Shown: positions 1 to 28,054, counted from the stretch's first letter. The stretch: 32,000 nucleotides of DNA from Candidatus Methanoperedens sp. (GCA_026552975.1 JAPMTR010000074.1:6313-38312); one strand, 5' to 3'. Program-made: numbers and translations. The notes: generated from the sequence alone by a model not told the origin.

Positions 1-841
1 TTGAGTTTGTTTCAAAAGCAATGGTACTTGGACGCGTCCAGTTTATTGAAACTGCTGTTGCCGTATGGCAGGCTATACAATTATCATTTGTATTATGTTC
101 CATACCATATTTGATGAAAGCTTCATGAATGATATCTGGTGTATTAATGAGATACTCTGAATGGCATTCAGTGCATAATATGGTGGATGAAGCATGGGCT
201 AATAAACCTGGTGTAATCTCATTAGCACCTGCCCCTGTAAGGTCGTCAGAGCCATATGGATTAACATTTATCTTTCTTGTGTCGAGCATTCCAAACCGAG
301 TGAGATTGTCCATATCTAATGGTACTCCATTAATATAAGTTGATATTTTTTTCTCTTTTTCATAATTATATAAAATTCCTGCTTCTCCCGGTGTCATGCT
401 TCCTTTATAAAAACCATTTTGATCACGTAATTCAATCTTATCATTGCCAGCAGCAGCCCATTGGTCTATAGTAATCTCACCAGAAATTGACGTAGGAAAA
501 TTTCCATTCTGGTAGTTCTGTATGGTCGTTGCAAGGACCCTATTCCCGATCATCGATGGACCTGTAATATTCACATAAATTAATCTCTCATAAGCATTGT
601 CACCACTTGCGTACTGAACACCCTTTTGGACACGGTGGCAATCTGAACATGTGAAGTTTTTATGGATGAAACCTGTATGGATCTCCAGCTGGATATCTCC
701 ATGACATTTAATGCATGGAACCTGGGAACCTACCGGATCAACATTATAATAGCTATGTCCGCCGCTAAATATGGACAGGGTATTGGGGATCAACCATATA
801 GAAATCCCACCTAAAGCTATCAATACCCACAAGAGTTTCAT
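1..841 (-). CDS. exported multihaem c-type cytochrome (at least 4 haems), paralogue of 2191..3510; C-terminal end lies beyond the window start
   Basis: Open-ended ORF absent from the supplied track. Own translation from ATG at complement 841-839: MKLLWVLIALGGISIWLIPNTLSIFSGGHSYYNVDPVGSQVPCIKCHGD... Four CxxCH motifs are visible (CIKCH, CSDCH, CTECH, CIACH) and the N-terminus is hydrophobic. It is collinear with the 443-aa ORF (SLFSGQHTFYNIDATGNQVPCAKCHGD; CVACHTHVAVDINF versus CIACHTATAVSINW). The ATG lies 1 nt after the stop of 843..1304. Confidence 0.85.
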   Translation of the reverse strand, partial: MKLLWVLIALGGISIWLIPNTLSIFSGGHSYYNVDPVGSQVPCIKCHGDIQLEIHTGFIHKNFTCSDCHRVQKGVQYASGDNAYERLIYVNITGPSMIGNRVLATTIQNYQNGNFPTSISGEITIDQWAAAGNDKIELRDQNGFYKGSMTPGEAGILYNYEKEKKISTYINGVPLDMDNLTRFGMLDTRKINVNPYGSDDLTGAGANEITPGLLAHASSTILCTECHSEYLINTPDIIHEAFIKYGMEHNTNDNCIACHTATAVSINWTRPSTIAFETNS

Positions 842-842
842 A

Positions 843-1304
843 TCACTCCTCACATTGCCAGCAATGGAAAGCGGTTGTTTTATATTGGATCGCTCCGGTG
901 CCACTGACCAGGCGGATCGTTATGATTAAAATATCGCCAGCTTTCGGTTCGCTCCCTTCCCTGAAAAATAGCTTCAGCGGAAATTCACCTTCTTCATAGC
1001 GGTAAGCAGACGCCCAGTAACTTGCAGGTGGTGCCATAAGAGTGTTAAGGCGAATATTCGCATCAACCTCCGGGAACTTTGGGATCGAATCTGCAGTTTT
1101 ATAGAAGAATGGTATAGCGATTTCTTCGATCGTTACATTGTTCACCATGGGGGTTCCAGTTTCTGATAGATTGGTTGAAACGATCATCATCACAGCGGGT
1201 TTTGCGAGGTCCATTTCAAGCGCATGTTGATATACATAATACCCTGATATTGACACTATTAATAACAGTATTATACCGTATTTTATTGATTTCTTTCTAT
1301 CCAT
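843..1304 (-). CDS. uncharacterised N-terminally membrane-anchored protein with C-terminal HCWQCEE motif
   Basis: 153-aa ORF with a basic N-terminus followed by one hydrophobic helix (KYGIILLLIVSISGYYVY). No family recognised. The last residues are H-C-W-Q-C-E-E (nt 846-866). It sits between two cytochrome genes with gaps of 42 nt and 1 nt. Confidence 0.6.
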   Translation of the reverse strand: MDRKKSIKYGIILLLIVSISGYYVYQHALEMDLAKPAVMMIVSTNLSETGTPMVNNVTIEEIAIPFFYKTADSIPKFPEVDANIRLNTLMAPPASYWASAYRYEEGEFPLKLFFREGSEPKAGDILIITIRLVSGTGAIQYKTTAFHCWQCEE

Positions 1305-1346
1305 TGTTCACTTCCTATCCAAATTTCTTTCTCGTCCCATATTTAT

Positions 1347-1943
1347 TCAGATCACTCCAAATAATGTATCAAATATTTGTTTAAGAAAAGCAAATATTGT
1401 GAATTTTTCAAGATTCCTATTTTTTTCAGGATCATTGGATGAAATAGGAGAATTAGTCATATAAACCTTGCCTTTTGCCCATGAACCATGACATATAGGG
1501 CAATTCTTGCTAATATTTTTGATGTGTATCGTGTGTACCTTGTTACTATGGCATAGTACACATTGAAATCCCTGTTTTTCAATTCCTTCGATCTTTACAA
1601 CAGTAAAATTATCCTGGGTATGACAGGTGGTACAATTTATTGCATTGTGCCCATTGTGAAATATCTGTTTCTCACTTGCATTGATCAGCGTGTTTCCCAT
1701 GTGGCAGGCTTTACAGATCTTTGGGTTATGTTCTTCCTCCAGTTTTGGCACATCTAATTTGTACTTATGGCAACCATTACATTCACTTTGTTGTGATCCA
1801 ACGCCAGCATTGAGAGTTTCACCATGACATCCTACGCAAGGAACAGGAATATGATCCTCTGGAATTTCTGATGCAGTTGCAAGGTCTGGAGTATACAGAA
1901 GAGAAATGAGGACTAAACAAATGACGACAATGTTTTTTTTCAT
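1347..1943 (-). CDS. small hexahaem c-type cytochrome with signal peptide
   Basis: 198 aa with a signal-like N-terminus (MKKNIVVICLVLISLLYTPDLATA). Six CxxCH motifs (CVGCH, CNGCH, CKACH, CTTCH, CVLCH, CPICH) in about 170 mature residues, plus many extra His residues that could serve as distal ligands. Confidence 0.85.
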   Translation of the reverse strand: MKKNIVVICLVLISLLYTPDLATASEIPEDHIPVPCVGCHGETLNAGVGSQQSECNGCHKYKLDVPKLEEEHNPKICKACHMGNTLINASEKQIFHNGHNAINCTTCHTQDNFTVVKIEGIEKQGFQCVLCHSNKVHTIHIKNISKNCPICHGSWAKGKVYMTNSPISSNDPEKNRNLEKFTIFAFLKQIFDTLFGVI

Positions 1944-2145
1944 ATTATTTTTTTAAATACAGGTTTTTACAGTCATTAATGAGAGATCTTTATCGTTGAT
2001 CTTCTCAAGAGCAACAATATTGAACACATTCTTCCTATCATAAATAAAATACGGTACCCAAAGTATATAAAGTTTACACTCAGTGAAAAATTATACAATA
2101 ATTAATAATTACAGTTAATGGTCAGTTAATAATAAAAGACATTAG

Positions 2146-2178
2146 AAAAAAAAGAGAAAAATGGGGATTACCCCATTT
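2146..2178 (-). terminator. stem-loop plus oligo-U tract 3' of the pentahaem cytochrome gene
   Basis: aaatgggg (2159-2166) atta ccccattt (2171-2178) forms a perfect 8-bp stem with a 4-nt loop, 12 nt after the stop at 2191-2193. On the minus-strand transcript it is followed by uuuucucuuuuuuuu (complement of 2146-2160). Confidence 0.6.
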
Positions 2179-2190
2179 CATAGTTCAGAT

Positions 2191-3510
2191 TTATGTTGTT
2201 AAGGCTGTTGTATTGTCGCTTGAGTCTCCATCAAGGCCAATTGTTGTCTTCACAGTTGCACCATTAACGTACATATTTGCGCCTCCCCAGGTATAGCTCT
2301 TGTCACCAGTTGCATAGGTTGCTCCGGATCCATTGCCATATATCGCAACATTGACCTGACCTTCAGCGAGGAAGTTATCTACAGTCCAGCTGCCCGTTGC
2401 TGTGTTTACAGCATCGAATTGAACTTTGTATGCTTTCTGGAAGTTAATATCGACTGCTACGTGTGTATGACATGCTACGCATGCGATATTATTTGAGCCA
2501 TAACCTGTTCCTGGGCCTCTGAGAACGCCATTTGGATCTGCTACGACGAATTCATTGTGTGCTTCAAGTGAGCCTTCTGTAGCGCTACCTGTTGTCAATC
2601 CCAGACCATCAATTGCTTGGAATCCTCCAGCTGCCATGGCACCTACCCATTCGCCTCCGCCATAGTGGCAGTTACCACAGCTACTGGCTAACAAAGACCT
2701 GTGATTATAGGGTTGTGATTGTACAACCTCATATCCTGCAGCTCCCTTCTGCTGCTCTCCTCCATGGCATTCCAGGCATGAGACCAGTGATGCTGCATGA
2801 TATGTCTGACCAGGAGTCATCAAATTAGAACCTGATCCAGGCGCTATTGTATATGCTGTGTTAGAGGTCCATGTAATTCCTGACCATTCTTCAAAGTAGT
2901 TATCTGTCATATTAGTTTTCAGGGTACCATTAGAATTCCTCAAGTTAACGAGGCCCCCTGTATCATAATATTTATATTCTCCAGCAACAGCAGCATTTGA
3001 TAGGCTGCCAGTATATTCACCATCAATCAAGAGTGCTGTATTATTTAACCATTGGGTTAAATTGTCAGCCTTACGGGCTTTCAAGGGGTTAAGAGTGGTA
3101 TCATCCCAGTTATGTACGGTCAAGGTTGTATCATAAGTCAGATACTTCGGGAAGTTTCCGCCTTCAAAGTTTGAAATGCTTGTTAAAAGATATAGTCTAT
3201 AGGATTCATTAGCTACATTTCTATATCTCACGACTGCAAGCGCATCGTCACCGGATGCAAAGCCTGCTTCGGCCCTATGGCAGTATTCGCACTGGAATTT
3301 TGCATGTGGTGCACCTGATCCTGCTGTTGCCATGGATCCGCTTAATTCTGCTTTCACATCACCGTGACATTTTGCGCACGGTACCTGGTTGCCTGTTGCG
3401 TCAATATTGTAGAAAGTGTGCTGGCCTGAGAACAACGACATGGTTGATGGCAGGGCGAACACGCCAATCCCAATAAGGGCAATTATGGCTAAAGTAAATT
3501 TTGTGTTCAT
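2191..3510 (-). CDS. exported pentahaem c-type cytochrome with a large haem-free middle domain
   Basis: The ORF track gives 2191..3522 (443 aa, GTG start). I prefer the ATG at 3510 (MNTKFTLAIIALIG...) because an SD-like GGATGTGA ends 8 nt upstream of it. Hydrophobic N-terminus. Five CxxCH motifs (CAKCH, CEYCH, CLECH, CGNCH, CVACH), with 166 haem-free residues between motifs 2 and 3. Seven N-x-S/T sequons. Confidence 0.85.
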   Translation of the reverse strand: MNTKFTLAIIALIGIGVFALPSTMSLFSGQHTFYNIDATGNQVPCAKCHGDVKAELSGSMATAGSGAPHAKFQCEYCHRAEAGFASGDDALAVVRYRNVANESYRLYLLTSISNFEGGNFPKYLTYDTTLTVHNWDDTTLNPLKARKADNLTQWLNNTALLIDGEYTGSLSNAAVAGEYKYYDTGGLVNLRNSNGTLKTNMTDNYFEEWSGITWTSNTAYTIAPGSGSNLMTPGQTYHAASLVSCLECHGGEQQKGAAGYEVVQSQPYNHRSLLASSCGNCHYGGGEWVGAMAAGGFQAIDGLGLTTGSATEGSLEAHNEFVVADPNGVLRGPGTGYGSNNIACVACHTHVAVDINFQKAYKVQFDAVNTATGSWTVDNFLAEGQVNVAIYGNGSGATYATGDKSYTWGGANMYVNGATVKTTIGLDGDSSDNTTALTT

Positions 3511-3523
3511 ATTTTTATTCACA

Positions 3524-3785
3524 TCCTATCTTTAATTTTTGTTAAACCCTAATCCAATTTGGTATTGTTAGAATAAGAATTCAGCAAAAGAAGAAGGTCC
3601 TTTTGCTGTCGCTCCTATCCTATCCATTTTCCCAATTTGGTATCAATTTGGGTATAATTAGGATACGAGTTTACAGAATATATACTTATCGATTCATTTT
3701 TTAAAAAAATCGTAATGAAGTATTTTTTTGCTGCAATTTATCCTATCCTATCTGTTAATCCCAATTTTGTAGTAATTAGGGATAG
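3524..3785 (-). promoter_or_regulatory. three copies of a 45-55-bp composite motif upstream of the pentahaem cytochrome gene
   Basis: Plus-strand reading: TCCTATC(CTATC), spacer, CCAATTTGGTAT, spacer, TTAG(G/A)ATA. Copy A spans 3524-3577 (tcctatc 3524-3530, ccaatttggtat 3554-3565). Copy B spans 3613-3666 (tcctatcctatc 3613-3624, ccaatttggtat 3632-3643, then caatttgggtat 3644-3655, aattaggata 3656-3665). Copy C spans 3741-3785 (tcctatcctatc 3741-3752, cccaattttgtagt 3760-3773, aattagggatag 3774-3785). Confidence 0.55.
3582..3608 (-). other. perfect 9-bp stem-loop between motif copies A and B (leader, attenuator or terminator-like element)
   Basis: cagcaaaag (3582-3590) and cttttgctg (3600-3608) are exact reverse complements separated by a 9-nt loop. 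Confidence 0.45.
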
Positions 3786-3888
3786 ATTTGTATAAGAGGT
3801 TACTAAATATATAGTTGTCTATTCTGTTCTATGCTGATGTATTTTTTGTTATTTAAAATAGGGTGATTCGATCTTTTTTCGAGGATTT

Positions 3889-4065
3889 TTAAATGAATCT
3901 CCTGAAGAATGTCTCCTCTTTTTTTGCTTTTTTATGTTTTACACCTGAAAAGATTTCATAATAAGATATTGTGGTCGTTACAGCATCTGAATTTTCTGAA
4001 ATATCATACGATTTATTATTACCTTTAAAGAAATCAATTAGAACGCTCGTATCCACTACTACCAT
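3889..4065 (-). pseudogene. vapC: truncated PIN-domain (VapC-like) toxin remnant, 58 codons
   Basis: Own translation (too short for the track): MVVVDTSVLIDFFKGNNKSYDISENSDAVTTTISYYEIFSGVKHKKAKKEETFFRRFI*. VVDTSVLIDFF is a typical PIN N-terminus carrying the first catalytic Asp, but full PIN domains are about 130 aa. The ATG overlaps the upstream stop (ATGGTAG), as in toxin-antitoxin pairs. Confidence 0.6.
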
Positions 4066-4262
4066 ATCCTTTGCCTCGCTGCCGCTCTTATTTTCTTACA
4101 ATCTTCTCCTATCTCATCCAGTACTTTGCTATCTTTAAGAACTCCAAAATACTCGCCAATATCTGATTTCTTTCTATTTGTCAGCCTGCCTATAACATCG
4201 CTAAAACTCTCATCCTCTGTATGCATACAGATATTATACTTGTTGAAAAACAGTTCAAACAT
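4059..4262 (-). CDS. small antitoxin-like protein paired with the PIN remnant
   Basis: 67 aa. The ESFSDVIGRL motif and the acidic/basic C-terminal half resemble the small archaeal putative antitoxins found upstream of PIN toxins. An in-frame TGA lies immediately upstream of the ATG, so the N-terminus may be truncated. The family name needs an HMM check. Confidence 0.45.
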   Translation of the reverse strand: MFELFFNKYNICMHTEDESFSDVIGRLTNRKKSDIGEYFGVLKDSKVLDEIGEDCKKIRAAARQRIW

Positions 4263-4365
4263 TCAGGTTTTCCCCAAGAAGTTACGCCAAATGTCCTTTC
4301 GAGTTCGTTGAGTTCTGCCTATAGCTTTCATTCTGCAAGAGAATTGTTATAGTTGACCTCACGTT

Positions 4366-6156
4366 TTATAAAAACACCTGATACATCCATTTTAGAATAT
4401 TCTCCATGATCGGAATTATTGTTAGATTTTGAGACGGCGATATATAGGTAATAGTGACGATCCAGTAATAGAAAAGCAGCAATACAGAAGTTAAAGCAAG
4501 TGATAGGGACATTAAGAACAGAGTGGTTTTATCCAATATGTCAGAAAAAGAGTTCTTATTATCCCAAAAAATGCTCAATGATAATGAAATCATTAAGGAT
4601 CCAGACGTGACCAGTCCTAGCGAATGGTACTGACCTATAAATTTTGAAGGAAATACTTCAATAAAGAAAAATACTAGTATCATAGCTGATGAAATGTATA
4701 ATAGGGCTATTTTTTTAATGTTACTTTCGATCAGCTCCCTCACTTTATTTATCCTGAGTGCAAAATACAAAAGCACTATATACATAATAAGCAAATACCT
4801 GTATTCAAGGACGATTGGAGTATCGGTGATTATTGCCTGGATATAATTTTTATGCAATATAAAGAAAATTACCGCATATATTCCCAAAAATTTATCTATG
4901 GGACTTAACCTTATTTTCCCTTTTATCCTGTCCAATATAAATGCAAGTGCCATAATTAAGAAAGGACTAATTAATAGAATACCAAACGTGTTTCCCAATT
5001 TCAGTATCAAGATATCAAATAAAACATCAAGCGTTCCTGTACTGATATTGGGGCCCCAGGTAAATCCAAGTTTTTCCAGAAGCTGCGTCTGTTTGATCTT
5101 TGCTGGACCTTCACTGAGTGTGATCATATTTTGTTCGATCTGCATTCTCATGGGCGTATCACTCAGTGGATGCAATTCTATGATAGAGAACGGATCCCCC
5201 AGTATCATCTGATTGAAACTGAAAAACGGGGTAAGCGATACAAAAATTATCATTGCGATCAAAGCAAGGTGTTTGATGCCTCTCCTGAAAAATATTATAT
5301 CAAAAAACAGGAGTGAGAGCATAAGCGCCGCACCATCAAGCGTTCGCGTCCATATGCACAGGCCCGCCAGGATATAAGCAGCATACATGTACCTGATGTC
5401 CTTTTTCTCCTGGCATCTATACAAAAAGTAAAAAGCCAATACTGTCAATAATAATGCAAGTGAATGATGCTTTAGGGTCAGCGCATAAAAGGAAATGGGG
5501 GTAGCAAATATAATAAACAGGGAAGAAAAAATGGCGATCTTATCATTGAATATTTTCCTGAACAGGAAATAAATCATCACGATCAGAAATGACGTAATGA
5601 GAATATTAGTAAATTCAATCGAGATTATTTCTCCCCATTTTGGAAAATAAATGGGATCAAAGGATCGCATATTTACTAATATTAAAAATAAACAAAATGC
5701 CAAACCAAAAAAAAACGCTTTCTTTATCTGCCAAGCTTTTGCCAGAAGATAAAAACTGATCCCGCCGCTTAATGCCCATATCTGCAGGAGGAATAAATGA
5801 GCGCCATAAAATATGTCTATATTTTTCAATGCAAAATATACAGGTAAAGATAGAACCAGCAATGAATAACTGAATTTTCCATATAAATGGTTCGCTACGG
5901 TAATGTATATTCCTTTTTCTACATTTACCTTTGCTACTTTCAGTTCTAAGGAGCCATGAATGAAATTATAGAACTGGCTTACTATCACCCCTTCATCTGA
6001 AAAAAGCATACGGGTTCCTGCAAAACTGAGAAATATAAATAATGAACCAAAAAACAATATTAAAGGGATCTGGTTAGATCCAAATAACCTGACGATTTTC
6101 TTATACATTGATATTAATTCCTGTTTTCCAGTGATCATTATTTTATTCGAATACAT
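4366..6156 (-). CDS. polytopic integral membrane protein, possible GT-C-type glycosyltransferase (ArnT/PMT-like)
   Basis: 596 aa with at least 12 hydrophobic helices by eye. An acidic SDEG motif follows TM1, where GT-C enzymes carry a D/E motif in the first external loop. There is no WWDYG, so this is not a second AglB. The function is inference. Confidence 0.5.
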   Translation of the reverse strand: MYSNKIMITGKQELISMYKKIVRLFGSNQIPLILFFGSLFIFLSFAGTRMLFSDEGVIVSQFYNFIHGSLELKVAKVNVEKGIYITVANHLYGKFSYSLLVLSLPVYFALKNIDIFYGAHLFLLQIWALSGGISFYLLAKAWQIKKAFFFGLAFCLFLILVNMRSFDPIYFPKWGEIISIEFTNILITSFLIVMIYFLFRKIFNDKIAIFSSLFIIFATPISFYALTLKHHSLALLLTVLAFYFLYRCQEKKDIRYMYAAYILAGLCIWTRTLDGAALMLSLLFFDIIFFRRGIKHLALIAMIIFVSLTPFFSFNQMILGDPFSIIELHPLSDTPMRMQIEQNMITLSEGPAKIKQTQLLEKLGFTWGPNISTGTLDVLFDILILKLGNTFGILLISPFLIMALAFILDRIKGKIRLSPIDKFLGIYAVIFFILHKNYIQAIITDTPIVLEYRYLLIMYIVLLYFALRINKVRELIESNIKKIALLYISSAMILVFFFIEVFPSKFIGQYHSLGLVTSGSLMISLSLSIFWDNKNSFSDILDKTTLFLMSLSLALTSVLLLFYYWIVTITYISPSQNLTIIPIMENILKWMYQVFL

Positions 6157-6290
6157 TTAATATCATTCATATACATATCGCCTTATTTTACTTCTATTAA
6201 GAATAGCAGCAGATATGAGTAAGATGAGCATAATTGTCGGAACAAAAATTTTGGAAACCTTTATAGCCACCCAGGAAATAAAGATTAGTA

Positions 6291-6914
6291 ATGATAAGAG
6301 TCATCCTTTATATCTCAGGAAAAGTCCAGAGAGTAAATTACAGGTCTAAAGTAATAAACAAAGCTGAAAAATACAATATAAAAGGGAATATTCAAAATCT
6401 TTCTGACAATAATGTAAAAATAATAGCTGAGGGAGAAGAAAAGGATATAGAGTTATTTATTCAGGATATAAATATTAAAAATACTCTTATAAATGTGTCC
6501 GATATAAAGATGGAATATTCCACCCCAACAGGTGAATACGAAAGTTTCTATAAGCTCGTCAGCGAAGGTGAAACAGATGAAAGACTCGATACAGCAGCAA
6601 ATTTGTTAAAAGAGCTTATAAATGTAACAAAAAAAGGTTTTTCAGGTATTGAGAAAAAGCAGGAAATCATGATAGTGACGCAACAAGAAACCATAGGTAA
6701 AATAGATAATCTTGGTATTGTGCTCGGGAATAAGATCGATCAGAATCGATTGGAGATAAAATCAGAGATACATGCGCTCAGAGACGATTTTAAGTCTCAT
6801 TTTGACAAAAGGTTATCAAAGATGGAATTCGAATTAGCTGAAATAAAAATAAAAGTCAATAAGATCCAACATTCTTCAAATAATCCCAGGACAAAAATAT
6901 CTCAAGCAGAATAG
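6291..6914 (+). CDS. acylphosphatase-like domain protein with a C-terminal coiled-coil region
   Basis: The N-terminus VILYISGKVQRVNYRSKVINKAEKYNIKGNIQNLSDNNVKIIAEGEE follows the acylphosphatase pattern (V.G.VQGV.FR...G.V.N..dG.V.i.aeG), but the QGV glycine is replaced. The C-terminal ~100 aa are charged and heptad-like. Confidence 0.5.
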   Translation: MIRVILYISGKVQRVNYRSKVINKAEKYNIKGNIQNLSDNNVKIIAEGEEKDIELFIQDINIKNTLINVSDIKMEYSTPTGEYESFYKLVSEGETDERLDTAANLLKELINVTKKGFSGIEKKQEIMIVTQQETIGKIDNLGIVLGNKIDQNRLEIKSEIHALRDDFKSHFDKRLSKMEFELAEIKIKVNKIQHSSNNPRTKISQAE

Positions 6915-6942
6915 AATTATTTATTAATAAGGAAAATACATA

Positions 6943-7191
6943 ATGATAAATATAAACCCAATTATAAATAATAATCCTAAAATAGCAGGATCAATTATGT
7001 TTTTGATCGGAGGCTTATCCGGTGCATTGACCCTAAAATTGTTAGGAGATGCCATATCCTCCCAATCTGTTCTCAAATACCTATCTAATACTTCACTGAT
7101 TATATATCTTGCATCTATCGTTATCCTTGCTCTACTATCATTTATCCTTATATCCAAAAGCTATAAACTACTGAATCCCTTCTTGAAATAA
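6943..7191 (+). CDS. small two-helix membrane protein (hypothetical)
   Basis: 82 aa with two clear hydrophobic segments, on the same strand as its neighbours. It competes with the antisense ORF 6924..7157. AT-rich region, so the call is weak. Confidence 0.35.
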   Translation: MININPIINNNPKIAGSIMFLIGGLSGALTLKLLGDAISSQSVLKYLSNTSLIIYLASIVILALLSFILISKSYKLLNPFLK

Positions 7192-7271
7192 ATGTTTTTT
7201 GACAAATAGAAACAATTTATCGTGAATATATTTAAATATCCCTACGACTAAATTAGTATTATGGCGATAGT

Positions 7272-7853
7272 ATGAGTAAAAATTATATTATTAAATTTGC
7301 ATTAATTTTCCTGGTTTTCATACTTTTAGCCGGGTCTGTTTCTGCTCTGTCATTTAATACTTTTTTTGGATCAGGCAGCGATACGCTCTCAAAACAATTA
7401 ATAGAGATCGATCAAAAAGTTAACCTGATCTCTGGAAATGATCGGATTATGAAGTTCATAAATATTAATATGAATATGAAGAACAAGAACGTTGATACAA
7501 TAGTTATCTCGATAAAAGAAAATAAGAAAATCGTAACTTCATATTACATAATAAGAGCTAAAAATATAAATGATGCCGCAGTTGTTACTAAAACTCCCCC
7601 GAAAAAAATGGGGACAGTATGGAATTTCAATCCGAATGCACGCCAATCCATCGATGGATTAAATTTAGCACAACAGGGTGTATCCCTCTATGATCAACAC
7701 CCCAGATCCAGGTCTGATATAACATTCTTTTTGCTTAAAGGGTACTTTTTATATATATCGGTACCAAGCCAGAATGTCCCTTCAATGAGTCAGATCATCC
7801 AGAACTCCAATTGTGATATATGCAGGAGAGCGGTTGCCCTTATTGGGATGTAA
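7272..7853 (+). CDS. secreted or anchored hypothetical protein
   Basis: 193 aa with a signal-like N-terminus (IIKFALIFLVFILLAGSVSA). No family recognised. It ends with a CDIC motif. Confidence 0.55.
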   Translation: MSKNYIIKFALIFLVFILLAGSVSALSFNTFFGSGSDTLSKQLIEIDQKVNLISGNDRIMKFININMNMKNKNVDTIVISIKENKKIVTSYYIIRAKNINDAAVVTKTPPKKMGTVWNFNPNARQSIDGLNLAQQGVSLYDQHPRSRSDITFFLLKGYFLYISVPSQNVPSMSQIIQNSNCDICRRAVALIGM

Positions 7854-7870
7854 AATTCCAATAATATTAT

Positions 7871-9409
7871 ATGAATAAAAGATTTCTTTTTTATTTTCTT
7901 TTTGCTTTATTGATCTTAAACAGTGGTTGTGTTGAGCAGGAAACCCGATCAAGATCACTCAATTATGCAGAAATTACAGGAACAGTGATCACAGAAACAC
8001 TTCTTATTGATCTAGGCTATTTTTCACATTTCCCTGAGAATTTCAAAGTTAGCCCGGATAGCAATCGATTCGCTTATCTGGAAGAAAAAGGCAACAAACA
8101 ATTTATTGTCATTAATGGAAAGAAAGAAAAACAATACGATGAAATTGGCGGGTTTATTTTCAGCCCTGATAGCAAGCGTCTGGCTTTCGAAGCAAAAGAG
8201 AATGGAAAGTGGTTCGCAGTTATTGATGGAAAAGAAGGATCTCACTATGACGGTATAAAAGACCTGGCATTCAGTATGGATAGCAAGAGGCTGGCTTATA
8301 TGGCCAATGAGAGCGATCAATGGTTCATCGTTATAGATGAAAGCGAGGGTAAAAGGTACAATAGTACAAGATTGCCTGTATTTAGCCAGGATAGTGAACA
8401 TATAGCCTATGAAGCACGAGTAGGGGGTACATGGTTTGTAGTTGTAGATGGAAAAGAACAAAATGAATATAATAACAGTTTAACTCCTCTTTTCAGTCCT
8501 GATAGTGACCGGATGGCATTTGTGGTACAGGATCAAAAAAAATGGTTTGTAGTTGTTGATGGAATAGAAGGAAAAAGATATGATTCTATTCTCATGAATA
8601 CCCTGATGTTTAGCCCGGATAGTAAAAATATTGTTTATGTAGCAAAAAATGATGGAAATTGGTTTGTAGTAGTCAGTGAAGAAGAAGAAAAAATATATGA
8701 TGAGATCCTGAAATACACCCCCATCTTCAGTCCGGATGGTAAAAGAATAGCTTACGCTGCAAGTGAAGGAAATAGTATGTTCGTGGTTGTTGATGGAAAA
8801 GAAGGGGAAAAACACGCAAGTATATTGAAACATTCCATTTCTTTCAGTCCAGATAGTGAACGGATAGCTTATGTAGCAAGAGATTCTGATAAATGGTTCG
8901 TTGTAGTGGATGGGAAAGAAGGAAACAGGTATGATGAGATCCTGAAATACTCACCAGTTTTCAGCCCGGATAGCAAACGAGTAGCATATGCAGTGAAAGA
9001 TAATGACCAATGGTTCGTAATAGAAGAAAATTCACAAGGAACTACGCAAAAAAGTACAAAAATTAAAGAACAGATTTCTTTTAGCCCGGCTCAGGCATAT
9101 CATGCTTCTTCAAAGAATAACTTCGCAGACACTCAGTTCACAATAAACAAAACAGGGAAGCAATACTACGATGTAATCGAAGGTTCATTGACTTTTAGCC
9201 CGGATAGTAAGCATCTGATCTATGGTGTTGTGGATAGTAATGGCCAATCAGTGGTCGTGGATGGAAAGGATGGGAAACCTTATGATTCAATTATTTTTAT
9301 CTATAATGGAGGAAGTATTTTTTTTGATTCAAAGGATAGTTTCCATTTTCTGGCACACAAAGGGAAAGGTGTTTATCTGGTAGAGGAGATTGCAGCTACA
9401 GTAATATGA
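7871..9409 (+). CDS. lipobox-like repeat protein, probable beta-propeller (PD40/TolB-like or WG-like repeats)
   Basis: 512 aa. The N-terminus is MNKRFLFYFLFALLILNSGC, a signal peptide followed by Cys. Then come 11-12 tandem units of 37-39 aa with consensus FSPDSKR(I/L)AY.a....kWFVVVDGKEG.rYD.I. Confidence 0.75.
   Translation: MNKRFLFYFLFALLILNSGCVEQETRSRSLNYAEITGTVITETLLIDLGYFSHFPENFKVSPDSNRFAYLEEKGNKQFIVINGKKEKQYDEIGGFIFSPDSKRLAFEAKENGKWFAVIDGKEGSHYDGIKDLAFSMDSKRLAYMANESDQWFIVIDESEGKRYNSTRLPVFSQDSEHIAYEARVGGTWFVVVDGKEQNEYNNSLTPLFSPDSDRMAFVVQDQKKWFVVVDGIEGKRYDSILMNTLMFSPDSKNIVYVAKNDGNWFVVVSEEEEKIYDEILKYTPIFSPDGKRIAYAASEGNSMFVVVDGKEGEKHASILKHSISFSPDSERIAYVARDSDKWFVVVDGKEGNRYDEILKYSPVFSPDSKRVAYAVKDNDQWFVIEENSQGTTQKSTKIKEQISFSPAQAYHASSKNNFADTQFTINKTGKQYYDVIEGSLTFSPDSKHLIYGVVDSNGQSVVVDGKDGKPYDSIIFIYNGGSIFFDSKDSFHFLAHKGKGVYLVEEIAATVI
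8039..9371 (+). repeat. in-frame tandem coding repeat, period about 111-117 nt, 11-12 units
   Basis: DNA-level recurrence of ttcagcccggatagcaa and tggtt(c/t)gt(a/t)gt(a/t)gt(g/t)gatgg(a/g)aaagaagg. An exact 21-mer, tatgatgagatcctgaaatac, occurs at about 8694 and about 8930. Confidence 0.8.
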
Positions 9410-9435
9410 ATTCAAGAAATATTCAAAATGAGCAT

Positions 9436-11691
9436 TTAGTTCACCTTAATTACCCTTCCATTCATAATATCGTTCTGCGTTACTTGAACAAAAATACTTG
9501 AATTATCATATTTCAGGTTATAATCTTTTAATAATCGAGTCTGATAAGGGCTATCACTGGAATATGGAACAATAAATTCAAAATATCCCTTCTCATCAGC
9601 TTTTGTTTCCTGGAAATAATCATATTCACGTTCCTGGTTTGTAATAATTGTTCCTTTGATCAGTAAAGTCCCATTGGATGATGAATTTCCTATAATTTTG
9701 GCGCCTTTTACATATTCGAAGATTTTAATATTCTTAGTAATTTTATCCATCAAATTATAATGTGTTTCATTTGATTCATATATCATCCTGTAATTTCGAA
9801 GCCCATTCCCATCAAAAACATGAAGCCTGGCATACATAGACCTGGCATAATCTACATTTGGAAGATTGTTTCCATCCAGGAACATTCCAATATCCTTATC
9901 TGCAAAACTCACAATAGCCATGAATGTCCCTTTTAATACGACCTGGTTTCCCTGCTGGAATTTATTTAATCCCATCCTGTGATCAACGATAACATACCTT
10001 GCTTTTCGCTTATTCATCATACTGTTCGCATTTATCTCATCTGGTTCAACAAAAAATCTTGCAGCTTCATCCCCGCCTATCTGGAAATTATTAGCCACCA
10101 CCGGACGTTTTGAAATATACAGGATCCAGTTCCCATAATCCCACCATGTCATAATGCCATATTGGGGACTTTTTCCAGGATCCGGACTATTTTCCCTCAA
10201 CCAGGTCAAAGAATCGTACCAGTCATCTGTTGGTTTTGGTGGGGACTGAGCCATATTATATGCCTGTATAGCGTTTGGAATAACAAGAATGGCAAGAATG
10301 ACCAATGCTATATGACCTGATTTCAGGCCAGAATATTTAAATTTAGAACTATTTTTAATAATATTATTAACATGAAATATTATCTTATCTAAGAAGAATC
10401 CTGACAATAACACAATATTAACAGACAGCATGTATGAAAAGCGCCTCTGGTACAGGGCAAGCGCCAGGACTATTAATGTCCAGATCAAAAAGAACAATGT
10501 TCCTTGATCGATTCCTTTTCGATAACAATATAATAAAAAGAAAAACCCGATTATTGCAAAATAGAAACTAAATGCGAATTGATGCCAGACAGGATTGCTG
10601 AAAAATTGCCACCCCAGGAAGACCCCGTCAAATGTATAAAATAATGGCTGAGCCTCCACTATTTGTTTTAATACAGGTGCATCCCTGAGTAAATATCCTA
10701 TACCATTCATTAAACTGTCATAAAAAGAAGGCACGGTTAAGGATATGACGCTAAATAAAGATAAAAAACTTATTATAAGTAATAGTGGATATAAATACCA
10801 TTTCTTATCTTTCAAAATGCGGAAAGTTAACCCTGAAAAGATCACTATTACTGCACAAGTTATGACATATAAAGGCTGGAAATATGAAAGTGTCCCGAAT
10901 TGTAATGCTTTTTGCCATGGTGTCCAGAGATAAAACAATATGATCGTAAAAAAGGCAATGGAAAATGAAATAATTCCACTTTTTAGAAGATTATCAGATC
11001 CAACATTGGATTTTCTGTTCTGGATGAATTGAAATATTATATACAATAAAATTATTCCTATAAATATAGGAGCACCGATCCATGTAAGGAAAGATAATCC
11101 TATAATGATCCCTGATAAGATTGAAAACTTATTGAATTCATTTTTTAATGACATGATGAAAAACAAATATGCAAGAACTGAGATCAGAACCTCTGAAATA
11201 TGATGGTCAACAAATCCCAAAAATGAAATCTGGGCATGCGCTGGCATCACTGCAAGTAAAAGAGAGCTATAAAGACCAACACGCTCATTAAAAATTTCTT
11301 TTGAGATATAATATACCGAAATTATCGAAAATATTCCTAATATAACAGGAGTGAAAGCGCCTATTGTTTCAATAAGGTGTACGCCCGGACTGCCAAAACC
11401 AGCAATTATAGATACAAGCGCTATAGTTTGATCAAAAAGGGGCGGCCATCCAATAATTGCACCATATGGATAATTTATGAATGGTTCGAAAAAAAATGTT
11501 CCGGGGAATGTATCAATAAACGAAAATACCCTCCACATATGGTAATAAGGGTCAGTCTCAAGAAAAACGATCCTACCCTGCTCAAACACCTGTGAAAATG
11601 TAAAGAGTCTTACAATAAGACCGATCAAAAGTATTACAAATAAAAATATGGAGCTCTGAGAGTTTATCCTGATATTTTTCAAATGTGACAT
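9436..11691 (-). CDS. aglB: archaeal oligosaccharyltransferase AglB (STT3 family)
   Basis: 751 aa with about 13 N-terminal TM helices and a soluble C-terminal domain. The WWDYG catalytic motif is at aa 516-520 (nt 10132-10146; I verified atgacatggtgggattatggg on the minus strand). Acidic loop motifs ETDPYYH (aa 45-51) and GFVDHH (aa 159-164) are present. Confidence 0.95.
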   Translation of the reverse strand: MSHLKNIRINSQSSIFLFVILLIGLIVRLFTFSQVFEQGRIVFLETDPYYHMWRVFSFIDTFPGTFFFEPFINYPYGAIIGWPPLFDQTIALVSIIAGFGSPGVHLIETIGAFTPVILGIFSIISVYYISKEIFNERVGLYSSLLLAVMPAHAQISFLGFVDHHISEVLISVLAYLFFIMSLKNEFNKFSILSGIIIGLSFLTWIGAPIFIGIILLYIIFQFIQNRKSNVGSDNLLKSGIISFSIAFFTIILFYLWTPWQKALQFGTLSYFQPLYVITCAVIVIFSGLTFRILKDKKWYLYPLLLIISFLSLFSVISLTVPSFYDSLMNGIGYLLRDAPVLKQIVEAQPLFYTFDGVFLGWQFFSNPVWHQFAFSFYFAIIGFFFLLYCYRKGIDQGTLFFLIWTLIVLALALYQRRFSYMLSVNIVLLSGFFLDKIIFHVNNIIKNSSKFKYSGLKSGHIALVILAILVIPNAIQAYNMAQSPPKPTDDWYDSLTWLRENSPDPGKSPQYGIMTWWDYGNWILYISKRPVVANNFQIGGDEAARFFVEPDEINANSMMNKRKARYVIVDHRMGLNKFQQGNQVVLKGTFMAIVSFADKDIGMFLDGNNLPNVDYARSMYARLHVFDGNGLRNYRMIYESNETHYNLMDKITKNIKIFEYVKGAKIIGNSSSNGTLLIKGTIITNQEREYDYFQETKADEKGYFEFIVPYSSDSPYQTRLLKDYNLKYDNSSIFVQVTQNDIMNGRVIKVN

Positions 11692-11712
11692 TTTTTACGA
11701 TTAGCAATACCA

Positions 11713-11738
11713 GGATTTCCACGAATCCGTGAAAATCC
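11713..11738 (-). other. 11-bp stem-loop in the fwdC-aglB intergenic region
   Basis: ggatttccacg (11713-11723) aatc cgtgaaaatcc (11728-11738). On the minus-strand RNA the single non-Watson-Crick position is a G-U pair. It overlaps three ATCCG(T/C)G repeats starting at 11725, 11735 and 11744. Confidence 0.45.
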
Positions 11739-11773
11739 GCGCGATCCGTGTTCTATTATATTACTGATGCAAT

Positions 11774-12532
11774 TCATTTCACATACAACAGGCCTTTCCC
11801 ATTGCCAATAACATCACCTGTATATTTTTTATAGGTTACGCCATCCACAATCTCATCGCCTTCAAGCTTAAAGACTGGCATCATCTCTTCCACTTTTCCA
11901 TTCACGATTATTGTGCCTTTTGACATCTCGCTCCCGGGACGGCTGGTATTGCCACCGATCACGATCTTTCCGCCATTGTTGCTCAATCCAGGAAGTATGC
12001 CTGTGTTCCCTTTCACTATGATCTCACCGCCGCACATATGCTCGCCAACGAAATCAAGTGCATTGCCCATTACGGTTATTTTGCCACCGCGCATGCCGCA
12101 GCTCTCACCGCGATATCCGGCGCCAAGGTAATAAGCAGCATTTCCTTCAATAATAAGCTCGCCGCCTTTCATTTCCCGCCCTGCCCAGGAGTCAACATTG
12201 CCTTTTACTGAGATTTTCCCGCCACTCATTTTCGCGCCAAGGTGCATGTCCACGTTACCAGTTATCAATATCAGGCCAGCGGTCATTCCTTCGCCGATCC
12301 TCTTTACACGTGAGAAGTCACCTTCAAGAATGATCTTTGTGTCTGCTGCTGGACCTGAACCTTCCACTTTTACAGAGAATAACTCTCCGATCGTTGTCTT
12401 CTGATTCCCCATCCATGCAACAAGCGCATGTATCTCTTTTTCAGTCTTCCCTGAAAATATATCCGCAGATATATTTTCACCCTCAACTGATATTTTTATT
12501 TCTTTCTTTGGTTTTAATGTAACTGTCTGCAT
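11774..12532 (-). CDS. fwdC: formylmethanofuran dehydrogenase subunit C
   Basis: 252 aa of repeated G-x-x-G-x-x-G beta-helix units (GNVDMHLGAKMSGGKISVKGNVDSWAGREMKGGELIIEGNA...), typical of FwdC/FmdC. The start overlaps the fwdA stop by 1 nt. Confidence 0.92.
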   Translation of the reverse strand: MQTVTLKPKKEIKISVEGENISADIFSGKTEKEIHALVAWMGNQKTTIGELFSVKVEGSGPAADTKIILEGDFSRVKRIGEGMTAGLILITGNVDMHLGAKMSGGKISVKGNVDSWAGREMKGGELIIEGNAAYYLGAGYRGESCGMRGGKITVMGNALDFVGEHMCGGEIIVKGNTGILPGLSNNGGKIVIGGNTSRPGSEMSKGTIIVNGKVEEMMPVFKLEGDEIVDGVTYKKYTGDVIGNGKGLLYVK

Positions 12533-15544: not shown

Positions 15545-15921
15545 TACTTATACCTCGCGATCAAATCTTTCATGGATAATATTTTTTTATCAGTAGGCTC
15601 TAACCGCGCCTTTATTCCTTTAAATCCTGGCATCCCGCAGCCCTTTGTATCAGGATCAACAACAGCATTTGCCCACGGCCCCATGGGAATGAAAGCCATG
15701 CCGTCAGGATTGCCATTGTTCTCTTTTAATTTTACGACCACATCACCGTGATCTGTCTTTACAGATATCTGGCTTCCTGGTTTTATCCCAAGGATGCCTA
15801 TATCCTTTGAGTTCAATTCACATAAAGCGGTCGCTTCCTGATAATCCAGGGACGTCTTGTTCTCGATAGTCGCTCCCTGGTTTATTGTTCTTCCGGTTAT
15901 CAGTATTGCATTTAATGTCAT
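15544..15921 (-). CDS. fwdD: formylmethanofuran dehydrogenase subunit D (molybdopterin dinucleotide-binding domain)
   Basis: 125 aa. ILITGRTINQG... and the beta-barrel-like remainder are typical of FwdD. It is the first gene of the D-B-A-C operon. Confidence 0.88.
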   Translation of the reverse strand: MTLNAILITGRTINQGATIENKTSLDYQEATALCELNSKDIGILGIKPGSQISVKTDHGDVVVKLKENNGNPDGMAFIPMGPWANAVVDPDTKGCGMPGFKGIKARLEPTDKKILSMKDLIARYK

Positions 15922-16013
15922 CTTACACCCTTTTTTTAAGGATGTAAATAACTTCCATATTTAAAAAGTATGTGATTTAGTTTGAGATATTGTTTCAGAA
16001 AAAAATTAAAATA

Positions 16014-22411: not shown

Positions 22412-22422
22412 AGGGATTTATA

Positions 22423-27808: not shown

Positions 27809-28054
27809 TGTGTTCTCCTGTTTAGTTTTACGGTTCAGCCTTGATAAGGCCACATCCCTGCGGGATCAACACCAAAAAGGTGCACATCCCACCAATTGTT
27901 TGTAAACAAACGGCTAAATGAAACCATGTCTTATTATACCTTTCTACGCACATTCGCATCACTCCATGTGGGAAATTTATAATATCAAACAGCAAAAGGT
28001 AAATACATTGTGTTCTAATTTAAGCCAATCTTAAATAGTCGATAGGAGATCCCC

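What the first reader, a model, noticed from the sequence alone, without database searches (positions are those of the whole stretch)
1..3522. Cytochrome-only locus: three exported multihaem cytochromes plus an unknown anchored partner, a candidate extracellular electron-transfer or cytochrome-filament module
Seen: four consecutive minus-strand genes. The pentahaem gene 2191..3510 has its own stem-loop/oligo-U at 2146-2178. It is followed by the hexahaem gene 1347..1943, an unclassifiable 153-aa anchored protein (843..1304) and a tetra(+)haem paralogue (1..841); these last three are separated by only 42 nt and 1 nt. There are 15 CxxCH motifs in total. Every product has an N-terminal hydrophobic export or anchor segment. 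No catalytic or quinol-oxidising partner (molybdopterin, NrfD, FeS or b-type cytochrome subunit) lies in the locus.

Established: archaea that run methanogenesis in reverse or respire metals rely on exported multihaem cytochromes. Polymerising cytochromes (OmcS/OmcE/OmcZ in Geobacter; tetrahaem filaments reported in Pyrobaculum and Archaeoglobus) are encoded in small cytochrome-centred loci with poorly understood accessory genes.

Inference: this locus could encode a surface conduit or filament. I could not place any of the four proteins in a named family by eye.
Basis: partly seen in the sequence, partly recalled or inferred. Interest (0 to 1): 0.75.

Follow-up and report, generated by a model that had tools for sequence, protein, structure and literature searches.

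The report
Methanoperedens cytochrome-nanowire gene cluster, front half
These four genes are the front half of a conserved gene cluster in the methane-oxidising archaeon Methanoperedens, and two of its cytochromes are clear relatives of the only structurally solved Archaeoglobus "cytochrome nanowire", so the locus probably builds an electron-conducting surface filament, a known kind of system here in a new five-haem variant with a dedicated assembly set.

Summary
There are four minus-strand genes with 5 + 6 + 0 + 4 CxxCH motifs, export or anchor segments, and a hairpin/oligo-T after the first gene.

The proteins are not unplaceable. A (2191-3510) and D (1-841) are homologues of AvECN, the Archaeoglobus veneficus cytochrome filament (PDB 8E5G; E 3.7e-23 and 3.2e-15). 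They keep its four haem motifs, its distal histidines and its N-terminal LPSTxSLFxGQH motif.

"Cytochrome-only" is an artefact of the window edge. On the parent contig the cluster continues with a CARDB-domain anchored protein, a dedicated archaeal signal peptidase I, a heptahaem cytochrome and a giant glycoprotein cytochrome. The N-terminal modules of the last two are also AvECN-like (hhalign probability 98.7%).

The order A-B-C-D-E-F-G-H recurs in at least 14 Methanoperedens genomes. A reduced set, A-B-C-(D fragment)-F, sits on an IMG/VR viral contig.

Published transcriptomes make the apparent A orthologue one of the most abundant cytochrome mRNAs, roughly 20-370 times B or D.

Best reading: A is the major subunit of a pentahaem nanowire, decorated with a beta-domain, and the other genes are accessory. 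Polymerisation is inferred, not shown. The AvECN-Methanoperedens homology is already published, so this is a new variant of a known kind.

The parts
2191..3510 (-). Gene A: exported pentahaem AvECN-family cytochrome (439 aa). It carries a beta-rich insertion of roughly 130-145 residues between haems 2 and 3 and an extra haem between AvECN haems 3 and 4. Proposed major filament subunit.
   Evidence: phmmer against PDB 8e5g_A gives E 3.7e-23. Foldseek finds 8e5g as the only significant hit, E 9.9e-5. Eleven histidines are invariant across 48 homologues. The insertion domain is modelled at pLDDT about 88. The protein is identical to OIN87_07215 of a Candidatus Methanoperedens MAG. The apparent orthologue Methanoperedens_00391 is expressed at 5,000-16,000 TPM.
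2158..2179 (-). Hairpin GAAATGGGG-TAAT-CCCCATTTT followed by a T-run, just 3' of A. It is a terminator or 3'-end stability element found only after A-type genes.
   Evidence: Terminator scan. The same stem sequence follows the A stop codon in 17 of 18 loci examined. The pattern occurs once in the window (expected 0.01) and once per A-type gene in 21 loci, and nowhere else.
3511..3830 (-). Promoter and 5' leader of A. It contains conserved CCAAATTG direct repeats, GGATAGGATAGGA at about -105, GATAGGATGTGA at -20, an internal hairpin at 3608-3582, and a tandem 129-nt duplication.
   Evidence: GGATAGGATAGGA is found only upstream of A-type genes in 12 loci.
1347..1943 (-). Gene B: small hexahaem cytochrome (198 aa). 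It has a standard Sec signal peptide (..ATA|SE..) and a conserved hydrophobic C-terminal tail. Proposed electron donor at the filament base.
   Evidence: Six CxxCH and 12 His. Pfam gives only generic c3/c7 matches. It is conserved next to A in all syntenic loci. Full-length homologues sit beside AvECN in A. veneficus (E 1e-11) and in the Geoglobus cluster.
843..1304 (-). Gene C: membrane-anchored protein (153 aa) with an N-terminal transmembrane helix and a 7-strand beta-sandwich. It has no cofactor motif. Accessory protein of unknown role.
   Evidence: AF2 pLDDT 91.8. No significant PDB fold match. Only 18 family representatives among 1.84 billion proteins. No conserved Cys or His, but a conserved N-x-T sequon. 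It always lies between B and the next ECN-like gene, including on the viral contig.
1..841 (-). Gene D: tetrahaem AvECN-family paralogue. The first 280 of 317 aa lie in the window; the rest lies beyond position 1. Proposed minor or specialised subunit.
   Evidence: phmmer against 8e5g_A gives E 3.2e-15. It is 31% identical to A over 250 aa, including the insertion domain. Full length comes from L001. Long (about 319 aa) and short (about 194 aa) forms exist in relatives. The apparent orthologue is expressed at 12-243 TPM.
4366..6156 (-). PMT_2-family (dolichyl-phosphate-mannose-type) glycosyltransferase. It is a conserved upstream neighbour and a possible glycosylation partner. The link to the cluster is an inference.
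   Evidence: Pfam PF13231, E 5e-10. A homologue about 70% identical sits directly upstream of A in L006, L008, L017, L018 and L021.

Best explanation
The four genes are the promoter-proximal half of a conserved Methanoperedens cluster, A-B-C-D-E-F-G-H, that builds and wires an extracellular cytochrome filament of the AvECN type.

Shown:
- A and D are homologues of the A. veneficus filament subunit. They keep its four haem motifs, its distal histidines and its N-terminal motif.
- The cluster also encodes a dedicated archaeal signal peptidase I (F).
- G and the giant glycoprotein cytochrome H begin with a compact AvECN-like tetrahaem module.
- The gene order is conserved across species, and a reduced version sits on a contig that IMG/VR classifies as viral.
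- The apparent A orthologue in 'Ca. M. nitroreducens' is transcribed far above the rest of the cluster.

Inferred:
- A is exported through Sec and cleaved after the conserved P-x-T-x-S (...LPSTMS|LFSGQH...), probably by F. This would expose an N-terminus whose His lies six residues in.
- As in AvECN, where three of four distal His come from a neighbouring subunit, subunits complete each other's haem ligation and stack into a continuous haem wire.
- Here the wire would carry five haems per subunit and an outer beta-domain.
- B (hexahaem, with a hydrophobic tail) feeds electrons in at the membrane side.
- D, G or the N-terminal module of H act as minor subunits or adaptors that join the filament to the cell-wall cytochrome H.
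- C and E (anchored beta-sandwich proteins) help assembly or anchoring.
For: Homology:
- A and D against 8e5g_A give E 3.7e-23 and 3.2e-15.
- BLASTP against full-length AvECN is colinear over both halves.
- Foldseek returns 8e5g as the only significant hit.

Conserved ligands and motifs:
- Four CxxCH plus H108 and H165 are invariant and H32 is nearly invariant (AvECN numbering) across AvECN, A, D and the G/H modules.
- A's extra haem sits where the pentahaem A. veneficus paralogue P0218 has its own.
- In AvECN, three of four haems take their distal His from another subunit (review PMC12203936).

G and H:
- The N-terminal module of G/H matches the AvECN family profile by hhalign at probability 98.7%, E 3e-16.

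The peptidase F:
- TIGR02228 scores 82.5 bits against a cut-off of 51.85.
- The SM..HR..GDNN motifs align to SEC11A/C.

Synteny:
- The full gene order appears in at least 14 genomes, and an A-B-C-8haem-F variant in 5-6 more.
- Geoglobus has a B-like cytochrome, a CARDB protein, an F-like peptidase (E 4.5e-34) and an ECN together.
- A. veneficus has AvECN, a pentahaem paralogue and a B-like cytochrome in a row.
- A viral contig carries A-B-C-(D fragment)-F.

Expression:
- Methanoperedens_00391, assigned to A by gene order and haem counts, gives 15,954 / 5,104 / 5,016 TPM on iron / electrode / nitrate. B gives 57 / 14 / 161 and D gives 147 / 12 / 243.
- This fits the private terminator hairpin after A.
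- Homologues were also the top-expressed cytochromes in strain MPEBLZ (PMC4683180).
Against: - No filament has yet been seen in Methanoperedenaceae (PMC13046784).
- Polymerisation cannot be tested with the tools here. AF2 without haems models the haem regions poorly (pLDDT below 50).
- A is strongly expressed under nitrate, where long-range transfer is not obviously needed. Arshad et al. read these proteins as pseudoperiplasmic carriers.
- A. veneficus has no F-, C- or E-like gene within 10 kb of AvECN, so those accessories are not universally required in cis.
- Electrode studies highlighted other clusters, namely OmcZ-like and NrfD-type ones (PMC10874420).
- The orthology of Methanoperedens_00391 to A rests on gene order and haem counts, not on a sequence comparison.
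Confidence: 0.6

Rival explanations
1. A, B and D are non-polymerising surface or pseudoperiplasmic electron carriers. They shuttle electrons between membrane menaquinol:cytochrome c oxidoreductases and the cell-wall cytochrome H, or the nitrate reductase. Their resemblance to AvECN reflects shared ancestry, not shared quaternary structure.
For: A and its homologues are highly expressed in nitrate-grown cultures. No filament has been seen in this family. Chadwick et al. model small ANME cytochromes as intermediates between the membrane and S-layer conduits. AvECN-like modules also occur fused inside larger cytochromes (G and H), which shows that the module can work without forming a homopolymer.
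Against: The distal histidines that AvECN supplies in trans are conserved. A is expressed about 20-370 times above its operon partners and has its own terminator, which is typical of a structural subunit. The cluster includes a dedicated signal peptidase and anchored accessory proteins, which a soluble shuttle would not need.
Confidence: 0.3
2. The filament is a heteropolymer, or D rather than A is the polymerising unit. In this reading D is the true AvECN orthologue, tetrahaem like the solved filament, and A is a surface-exposed terminal reductase.
For: D has four haems, like AvECN. Its short 194-aa form lacks the insertion and is closest in architecture to AvECN. In MPEBLZ the top-expressed cytochrome was listed as the homologue of ANME2D_02830, the D position.
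Against: In 'Ca. M. nitroreducens', D is 20-440 times less expressed than A. AvECN scores higher against A (80 bits) than against D (57 bits). The MPEBLZ protein is only 29% identical to ANME2D_02830.
Confidence: 0.08
3. The cytochromes are partners of a catalytic enzyme, acting as a nitrite or hydroxylamine reductase-type electron-transfer module.
For: There are weak local matches to NrfA, NrfB and octahaem nitrite reductase (E 0.002-0.5, covering 50-100 residues).
Against: The matches cover only paired haem motifs. NCBIfam scores are 19-25 bits against cut-offs of 166-595. No catalytic subunit is present in at least 17 kb of cluster. The only strong PDB hit is the filament.
Confidence: 0.02

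Closest known systems
AvECN, the extracellular cytochrome nanowire of Archaeoglobus veneficus (F2KMU8, PDB 8E5G; Baquero et al. 2023 Cell, cited from memory and through reviews because the paper itself is not held)
   Same: Homologous sequence. The same N-terminal LPSTxSLFxGQH motif, four CxxCH in the same order, conserved distal His, and a C-terminal beta region. Both loci contain a 4-haem form, a 5-haem form and a B-like small cytochrome.
   Different: A has five haems and a beta-domain insertion of roughly 130-145 residues. The abundant product here is the pentahaem form, not the tetrahaem form. The Methanoperedens cluster adds C, E, F, G and H, none of which lies within 10 kb of AvECN. Polymerisation of A or D has not been shown.
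MmcX of 'Ca. Serpentinarchaeum' Met12 (PMC11176372)
   Same: The same AvECN clade. That paper already notes members with 3-5 haem motifs in Methanoperedenaceae, ANME-1, ANME-2, Syntropharchaeales and Archaeoglobales, and reports very high in situ expression.
   Different: MmcX is a lone tetrahaem gene discussed without an accessory cluster.
OmcS and OmcE 'insulated' nanowires of Geobacter
   Same: Proposed to work alike: an exported multihaem subunit, inter-subunit His ligation and a continuous haem chain. OmcE clusters also include beta-propeller proteins and family-39 glycosyltransferases. A PD40 propeller and a PMT_2 glycosyltransferase are conserved neighbours here.
   Different: No sequence relationship. 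None of them appears in the PDB searches even at E up to 10. The cell envelope is different, an archaeal S-layer rather than an outer membrane.
OmcZ with its protease OzpA (Geobacter; homologues in Methanoperedens, PMC10874420)
   Same: A nanowire subunit gene paired with a dedicated protease gene.
   Different: OzpA is a subtilisin-like protease that trims a precursor. F is a type I signal peptidase. OmcZ is unrelated to A and lies in a separate Methanoperedens cluster.
tapA-sipW-tasA fibre operon of Bacillus subtilis (from general knowledge)
   Same: The same logic: an abundant fibre subunit, a dedicated ER/archaeal-type signal peptidase I, and a small anchored accessory protein. F matches the SipW model weakly (E 1.6e-9).
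   Different: The subunits are unrelated and TasA has no haems. F scores far below the SipW equivalog cut-off (37.6 against 190 bits). This is an analogy only.
ANME S-layer multihaem cytochromes and their associated signal peptidase (McGlynn 2015; Chadwick 2022, PMC9012536)
   Same: H is a giant, heavily N-glycosylated cytochrome with Ig-like and CarboxypepD_reg repeats, predicted to sit in the cell wall. A signal peptidase beside large ANME cytochromes has been noted before.
   Different: Those clusters centre on MHC-B and CcmF2. The AvECN-like N-terminal module of H and its linkage to A-D are not described in the papers I could read. The S-layer domain of H could not be checked because the contigs end.

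Membership tests
AvECN-type extracellular cytochrome nanowire subunit (PDB 8E5G) | Significant sequence homology to AvECN over both halves of the protein | tested here: met
   phmmer gives E 3.7e-23 for A and 3.2e-15 for D. BLASTP against full-length AvECN gives 1e-20 plus 1e-11 for A, and 4e-13 plus 3e-9 for D.
AvECN-type extracellular cytochrome nanowire subunit (PDB 8E5G) | Four CxxCH motifs in conserved order, with the conserved distal histidines (H32, H108, H165 and one in the haem1-haem2 loop) | tested here: met
   Alignment A5 shows all four motifs plus H108 and H165 invariant and H32 nearly invariant. A adds a fifth motif at the position used by the A. veneficus pentahaem paralogue.
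AvECN-type extracellular cytochrome nanowire subunit (PDB 8E5G) | Signal peptide followed by the conserved LPSTxSLFxGQH(W/F)YN N-terminus | tested here: met
   The cleavage site itself is inferred.
AvECN-type extracellular cytochrome nanowire subunit (PDB 8E5G) | Same fold | tested here: inconclusive
   Foldseek finds 8e5g as the only significant hit (E 9.9e-5, probability 1.0). However, TM is 0.18-0.33 and the haem regions of the AF2 model have pLDDT below 50.
AvECN-type extracellular cytochrome nanowire subunit (PDB 8E5G) | Polymerises into a filament with inter-subunit His-haem ligation and a continuous haem stack | not testable with these tools
   No haem-aware multimer prediction is available, and no filament has been reported for Methanoperedenaceae.
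Archaeal/ER-type signal peptidase I (S26B, TIGR02228). This applies to gene F, which lies outside the window on L001 12990-13676. | Score above the curated cut-off, and the catalytic Ser, His and GDNN boxes | tested here: met
   82.5 bits against a cut-off of 51.85. The SDSM..THRV..GDNN motifs align to SEC11A/C.
Cytochrome c nitrite reductase or hydroxylamine oxidoreductase partners (NrfA, NrfB, NrfH, ONR) | Full-length homology above family cut-offs | tested here: not met
   Only local matches. NCBIfam scores are 19-25 bits against cut-offs of 166-595. PDB E-values are 0.002-0.5 over 50-100 residues.
Geobacter nanowire cytochromes OmcS, OmcE and OmcZ | Sequence homology to the solved subunits | tested here: not met
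   None of them is listed in the PDB searches at E up to 10.
ANME S-layer multihaem cytochrome (MHC-A/B). This applies to gene H. | S-layer domain and a C-terminal transmembrane helix | not tested
   H is cut by contig ends in every locus held. Only Ig-like, PKD and CarboxypepD_reg repeats were seen.

The most novel reading that the evidence does not exclude
The cluster is a complete, self-contained and horizontally mobile assembly system for archaeal cytochrome nanowires. It would comprise a pentahaem major subunit (A), a dedicated signal peptidase (F) that creates the His-bearing N-terminus needed for polymerisation, anchored beta-sandwich assembly factors (C and E), and a cell-wall cytochrome (H) whose own AvECN-like N-terminal module co-polymerises with A. 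The wire would then be plugged directly into the S-layer conduit. A reduced version (A-B-C-D fragment-F) is carried on a viral contig and could equip a host with the wire.
Probability: 0.3. Interest if true: 0.8.

Novelty: new variant of a known kind. Interest (0 to 1): 0.55.

Why it matters
Two questions are stated as open in recent reviews. One is how cytochrome nanowires are exported and assembled. The other is whether Methanoperedens uses cytochrome filaments or archaella for long-range electron transfer.

This locus gives concrete, testable candidates for both:
- a specific major subunit, A, to look for in cryo-EM and mass spectrometry;
- a small gene set (A, B, C, F) for heterologous reconstitution;
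- a predicted junction between the filament and the cell-wall cytochrome.

It also predicts a five-haem, domain-decorated version of the AvECN wire.

It does not overturn anything. The family and its presence in Methanoperedens are already known.

Tried and rejected
- **Family naming.** Pfam and NCBIfam gave only generic c3/c7/MtrC matches for the cytochromes and nothing for C.
- **C as a thiol reductase.** I considered C as a CcmH-like thiol reductase because of its C-terminal CWQC. I rejected this because the motif is unique to this genome and no Cys or His is conserved in the family.
- **Structure of A.** AF2 is unreliable in the haem regions, so no haem geometry could be read from it.
- **Genome scan.** The back-translated patterns were too narrow to reach A. 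veneficus. I reached it instead by searching with the AvECN sequence reconstructed from the PDB alignment.
- **Primary paper.** The AvECN paper (PMC10330847) is not held. Its content is cited only through reviews.
- **Other searches.** Rfam found nothing in 1-4400. B and E have no relatives in the PDB by sequence.
- **Spare histidines in D.** I looked at the 'spare' conserved histidines in D as a sign of a capping subunit and dropped the idea, because AvECN-type proteins also carry a spare conserved His.

Full report
**Observation.** The window start carries four consecutive minus-strand genes, exactly as described.
- A, 2191-3510: 439 aa, 5 CxxCH.
- B, 1347-1943: 198 aa, 6 CxxCH.
- C, 843-1304: 153 aa, no CxxCH.
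- D, 1-841: 280 aa in the window, 4 CxxCH.

The motif total is 15. The gaps are 247, 42 and 1 nt. A 9-bp hairpin with a T-run follows A at 2179-2158. All four products begin with a hydrophobic segment. Two details differ from the finding. D is cut by the window edge, and the locus does not end where the window does.

**Organism and extent.** A is identical to OIN87_07215 of a Candidatus Methanoperedens MAG. The rest of the window fits a Methanosarcinales-type chromosome, with formylmethanofuran dehydrogenase, topoisomerase VI, SecDF, DnaJ and AglB.

Looking up protein C returned a 20-kb contig (L001) that extends past window position 1. In order, it shows:
- D complete, at 317 aa with exactly four haem motifs;
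- E, 486 aa: signal peptide, CARDB and Ig-like domains, and a C-terminal transmembrane helix;
- F, 228 aa;
- G, 294 aa: seven CxxCH plus a CxxCK;
- H, more than 979 aa: the same heptahaem module, followed by Ig-like, PKD and CarboxypepD_reg repeats, with 66 N-x-S/T sequons.

F is a bona fide archaeal signal peptidase I. It scores 82.5 bits on TIGR02228 against a cut-off of 51.85, and its Ser, His and GDNN boxes align to human SEC11A/C. "Cytochrome-only" is therefore a truncation artefact.

**What A and D are.** Both hit a single solved structure strongly: 8e5g_A, the Archaeoglobus veneficus cytochrome filament. E is 3.7e-23 for A and 3.2e-15 for D. All other PDB matches are local haem-motif similarities to nitrite reductases (E at least 0.002).

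Foldseek with the AF2 model of A again returns 8e5g as the only significant hit (E 9.9e-5). The model is poor in the haem regions (pLDDT below 50), so I treat fold identity as inconclusive.

I aligned AvECN relatives with A-type, D-type and G/H sequences. The alignment shows:
- all four CxxCH motifs invariant;
- H108 and H165 (AvECN numbering) invariant;
- H32, in the N-terminal LPSTxSLFxGQH motif, nearly invariant.

According to a review, three of AvECN's four haems take their distal histidine from a neighbouring subunit (PMC12203936). Conservation of those histidines is the best available sequence argument that A and D also depend on subunit-subunit contacts.

A differs from AvECN in two ways:
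- A confidently modelled beta-rich insertion of roughly 130-145 residues lies between haems 2 and 3 (pLDDT about 88). D-long shares it and D-short lacks it.
- A fifth haem motif with its own upstream His is present. It sits at the same position as the extra haem of the A. veneficus paralogue P0218 and of ANME-1 relatives.

**G and H.** A profile of the first 300 residues of G and H from 14 loci was compared with an AvECN-family profile. It matched at probability 98.7%, E 3e-16, over positions 9-150 against 16-241. The extended cluster therefore contains four AvECN-type modules: A, D, G and H. One of them is fused to a giant, heavily glycosylated wall protein.

**B and C.** B is a small hexahaem cytochrome with a canonical signal peptide and a hydrophobic C-terminal tail. 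Full-length relatives lie directly beside AvECN in A. veneficus (196 aa, E 1e-11, same tail) and in a Geoglobus cluster.

C belongs to a tiny family, with only 18 representatives among 1.84 billion proteins. It has no conserved Cys or His. It is predicted with high confidence (pLDDT 91.8) as a transmembrane helix plus a seven-strand beta-sandwich, and it has no specific structural relative.

**Conservation.** I called ORFs in all fetched loci and compared them with A-H.
- The order A-B-C-D-E-F-G/H recurs in at least 14 Methanoperedens genomes. These include 'Ca. M. nitroreducens' ANME-2d (ANME2D_02827 onward), BLZ2 and Mnv1.
- More divergent Methanoperedenaceae carry A-B-C-(8-haem)-F.
- Geoglobus has a B-like cytochrome, a CARDB protein, an F-like peptidase (E 4.5e-34) and an ECN together.
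- A. veneficus has only AvECN, the pentahaem paralogue and a B-like gene, with no peptidase within 10 kb.
- ANME-1 and Syntrophoarchaeum have tandem ECN-like genes only.
- An IMG/VR viral contig carries A-like, B-like, C-like, a D-like fragment and F-like (E 2e-59) genes in the same order. Its flanks hold an HNH endonuclease and a PHROG protein. This agrees with a preprint that reports 5- and 6-haem cytochromes on a Methanoperedens virus.

The recurring core is therefore an ECN subunit, B, C and F.

**Expression.** In the data of Zhang et al. 2023 for 'Ca. M. nitroreducens', genes Methanoperedens_00388 to 00397 carry 5, 0, 0, 5, 6, 0, 4, 0, ?, 8 CxxCH motifs; the entry for 00396 was not seen in the supplement. 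This reproduces the gene order of locus L002. On that basis 00391 is the A orthologue. This is an inference from order, not from an alignment.

| Gene | Iron (TPM) | Electrode (TPM) | Nitrate (TPM) |
|---|---|---|---|
| 00391 (A) | 15,954 | 5,104 | 5,016 |
| 00392 (B) | 57 | 14 | 161 |
| 00394 (D) | 147 | 12 | 243 |

00391 is the first or second most abundant cytochrome transcript in the whole community. Homologues were also the top cytochrome transcripts in strain MPEBLZ.

The excess of A over its neighbours matches the cis elements:
- The hairpin GAAATGGG-loop-CCCATTTC plus T-run follows the stop codon of A in 17 of 18 loci.
- It occurs once per A-type gene and nowhere else in the window or in about 600 kb of loci.
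- The 5' leader carries conserved, A-specific motifs.

**Mechanism.** Shown: the homology, the conserved ligands, the composition of the cluster, its conservation and the expression asymmetry.

Inferred:
- A is the major subunit of an AvECN-type wire.
- It is cleaved after the conserved P(-5), T(-3), S(-1), which leaves L-F-x-G-Q-H at the new N-terminus. F is the likely peptidase.
- B injects electrons at the membrane side.
- D, G or the N-terminal module of H act as minor or adaptor subunits that link the wire to the wall cytochrome.
- C and E assist anchoring or assembly.
- The conserved upstream PMT_2 glycosyltransferase may glycosylate the products.

The tapA-sipW-tasA operon and the OmcZ/OzpA pair are functional analogies, not relatives.

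**Rivals.** The main alternative is that these are non-polymerising surface or pseudoperiplasmic carriers. Evidence for this:
- expression is high under nitrate;
- no filament has been seen in this family;
- the same module also exists fused within larger cytochromes.

I give this about 0.3. An enzyme-partner role is essentially excluded.

**Novelty.** The AvECN family, its 3-5-haem members in Methanoperedenaceae, and the idea that Methanoperedens may build such wires are all published. A signal peptidase beside large ANME cytochromes has also been noted.

Several things appear to be new, as far as the papers I could read show:
- the defined A-H cluster;
- the pentahaem, domain-decorated form as the abundant product;
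- the AvECN-like module at the head of the wall cytochrome;
- the C family;
- the A-specific 5' and 3' elements;
- the presence of C and F in the virus-borne copy.

I rate this a new variant of a known kind, with interest 0.55.

Noticed in passing
window 2158-2179 (-); L001 9127-9146 and the equivalent sites in 20 other loci: The hairpin after gene A is conserved in sequence (GAAATGGG / CCCATTTC stem, variable loop, then a T-run) across Methanoperedens species whose A proteins are only 40-70% identical. It occurs once per A-type gene and nowhere else in the window or the loci. This suggests a gene-specific terminator or mRNA-stability element rather than a generic one.
   Followed up: yes
window 3511-3830 (-): The leader of A carries motifs found only upstream of A-type genes. 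These are GGATAGGATAGGA at about -105 (12 loci), CCAAATTG direct repeats one helical turn apart, a hairpin with some compensatory changes, and TTCTTATTCT, which can pair with GGATAGGA. In this genome the promoter-leader start is tandemly duplicated (3630-3695 and 3759-3824, 74% identical, 129-nt spacing).
   Followed up: partly
L001 13673-14557 and 14611-15510 (beyond the window start): G and H each carry an invariant C-I-S-C-K (CxxCK) after their seven CxxCH motifs. It is conserved in all 14 sequences aligned. It could be a lysine-type haem site as in NrfA, but this was not examined.
   Followed up: no
L039 8001-11637 (IMGVR_UViG_3300020045_010174): A 74-kb contig classed as viral carries a compact A-B-C-(D fragment)-F set, with an HNH endonuclease and a PHROG_2650 protein nearby. 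I did not look for capsid genes.
   Followed up: partly
L004 1121-9590; also L008, L017 and L021 upstream regions: Several genomes have a second, divergent cluster a few kb upstream on the opposite strand. It contains two 4-haem ECN-like genes, a B-like gene, a 142-aa protein, a second S26 peptidase (241 aa), an 11-haem G/H-like cytochrome and CARDB-like proteins.
   Followed up: partly
window 4366-6156 (-) and 7871-9409 (+): A PMT_2 glycosyltransferase and a PD40 beta-propeller protein with a lipobox-like N-terminus are conserved upstream neighbours of A in 5-6 other genomes. Geobacter OmcE clusters likewise include beta-propeller lipoproteins and family-39 glycosyltransferases. AglB (9436-11691) lies next door.
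   Followed up: partly
window 3889-4262 (-): A small VapB/VapC (PIN) toxin-antitoxin pair sits between the glycosyltransferase and the A promoter in this genome only.
   Followed up: no
window 21533-22411 (+) and 22408-23517 (+): Two further overlapping cytochrome genes. One is 292 aa with 5 CxxCH and a C-terminal transmembrane helix. The other is 369 aa with an N-terminal transmembrane helix, 12 CxxCH and one CxxxCH. They may form a membrane electron-output module 18 kb from the cluster.
   Followed up: no
window 843-851 (-), C-terminus of C: The C-terminal H-C-W-Q-C-E-E of protein C is unique to this genome. All relatives end at the conserved W.
   Followed up: yes
window 27827-27891 (-): Rfam eL15-Euryarchaeota ribosomal protein leader (RF03144, 35.4 bits against a gathering score of 33.7), upstream of the L15e gene.
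   Followed up: no
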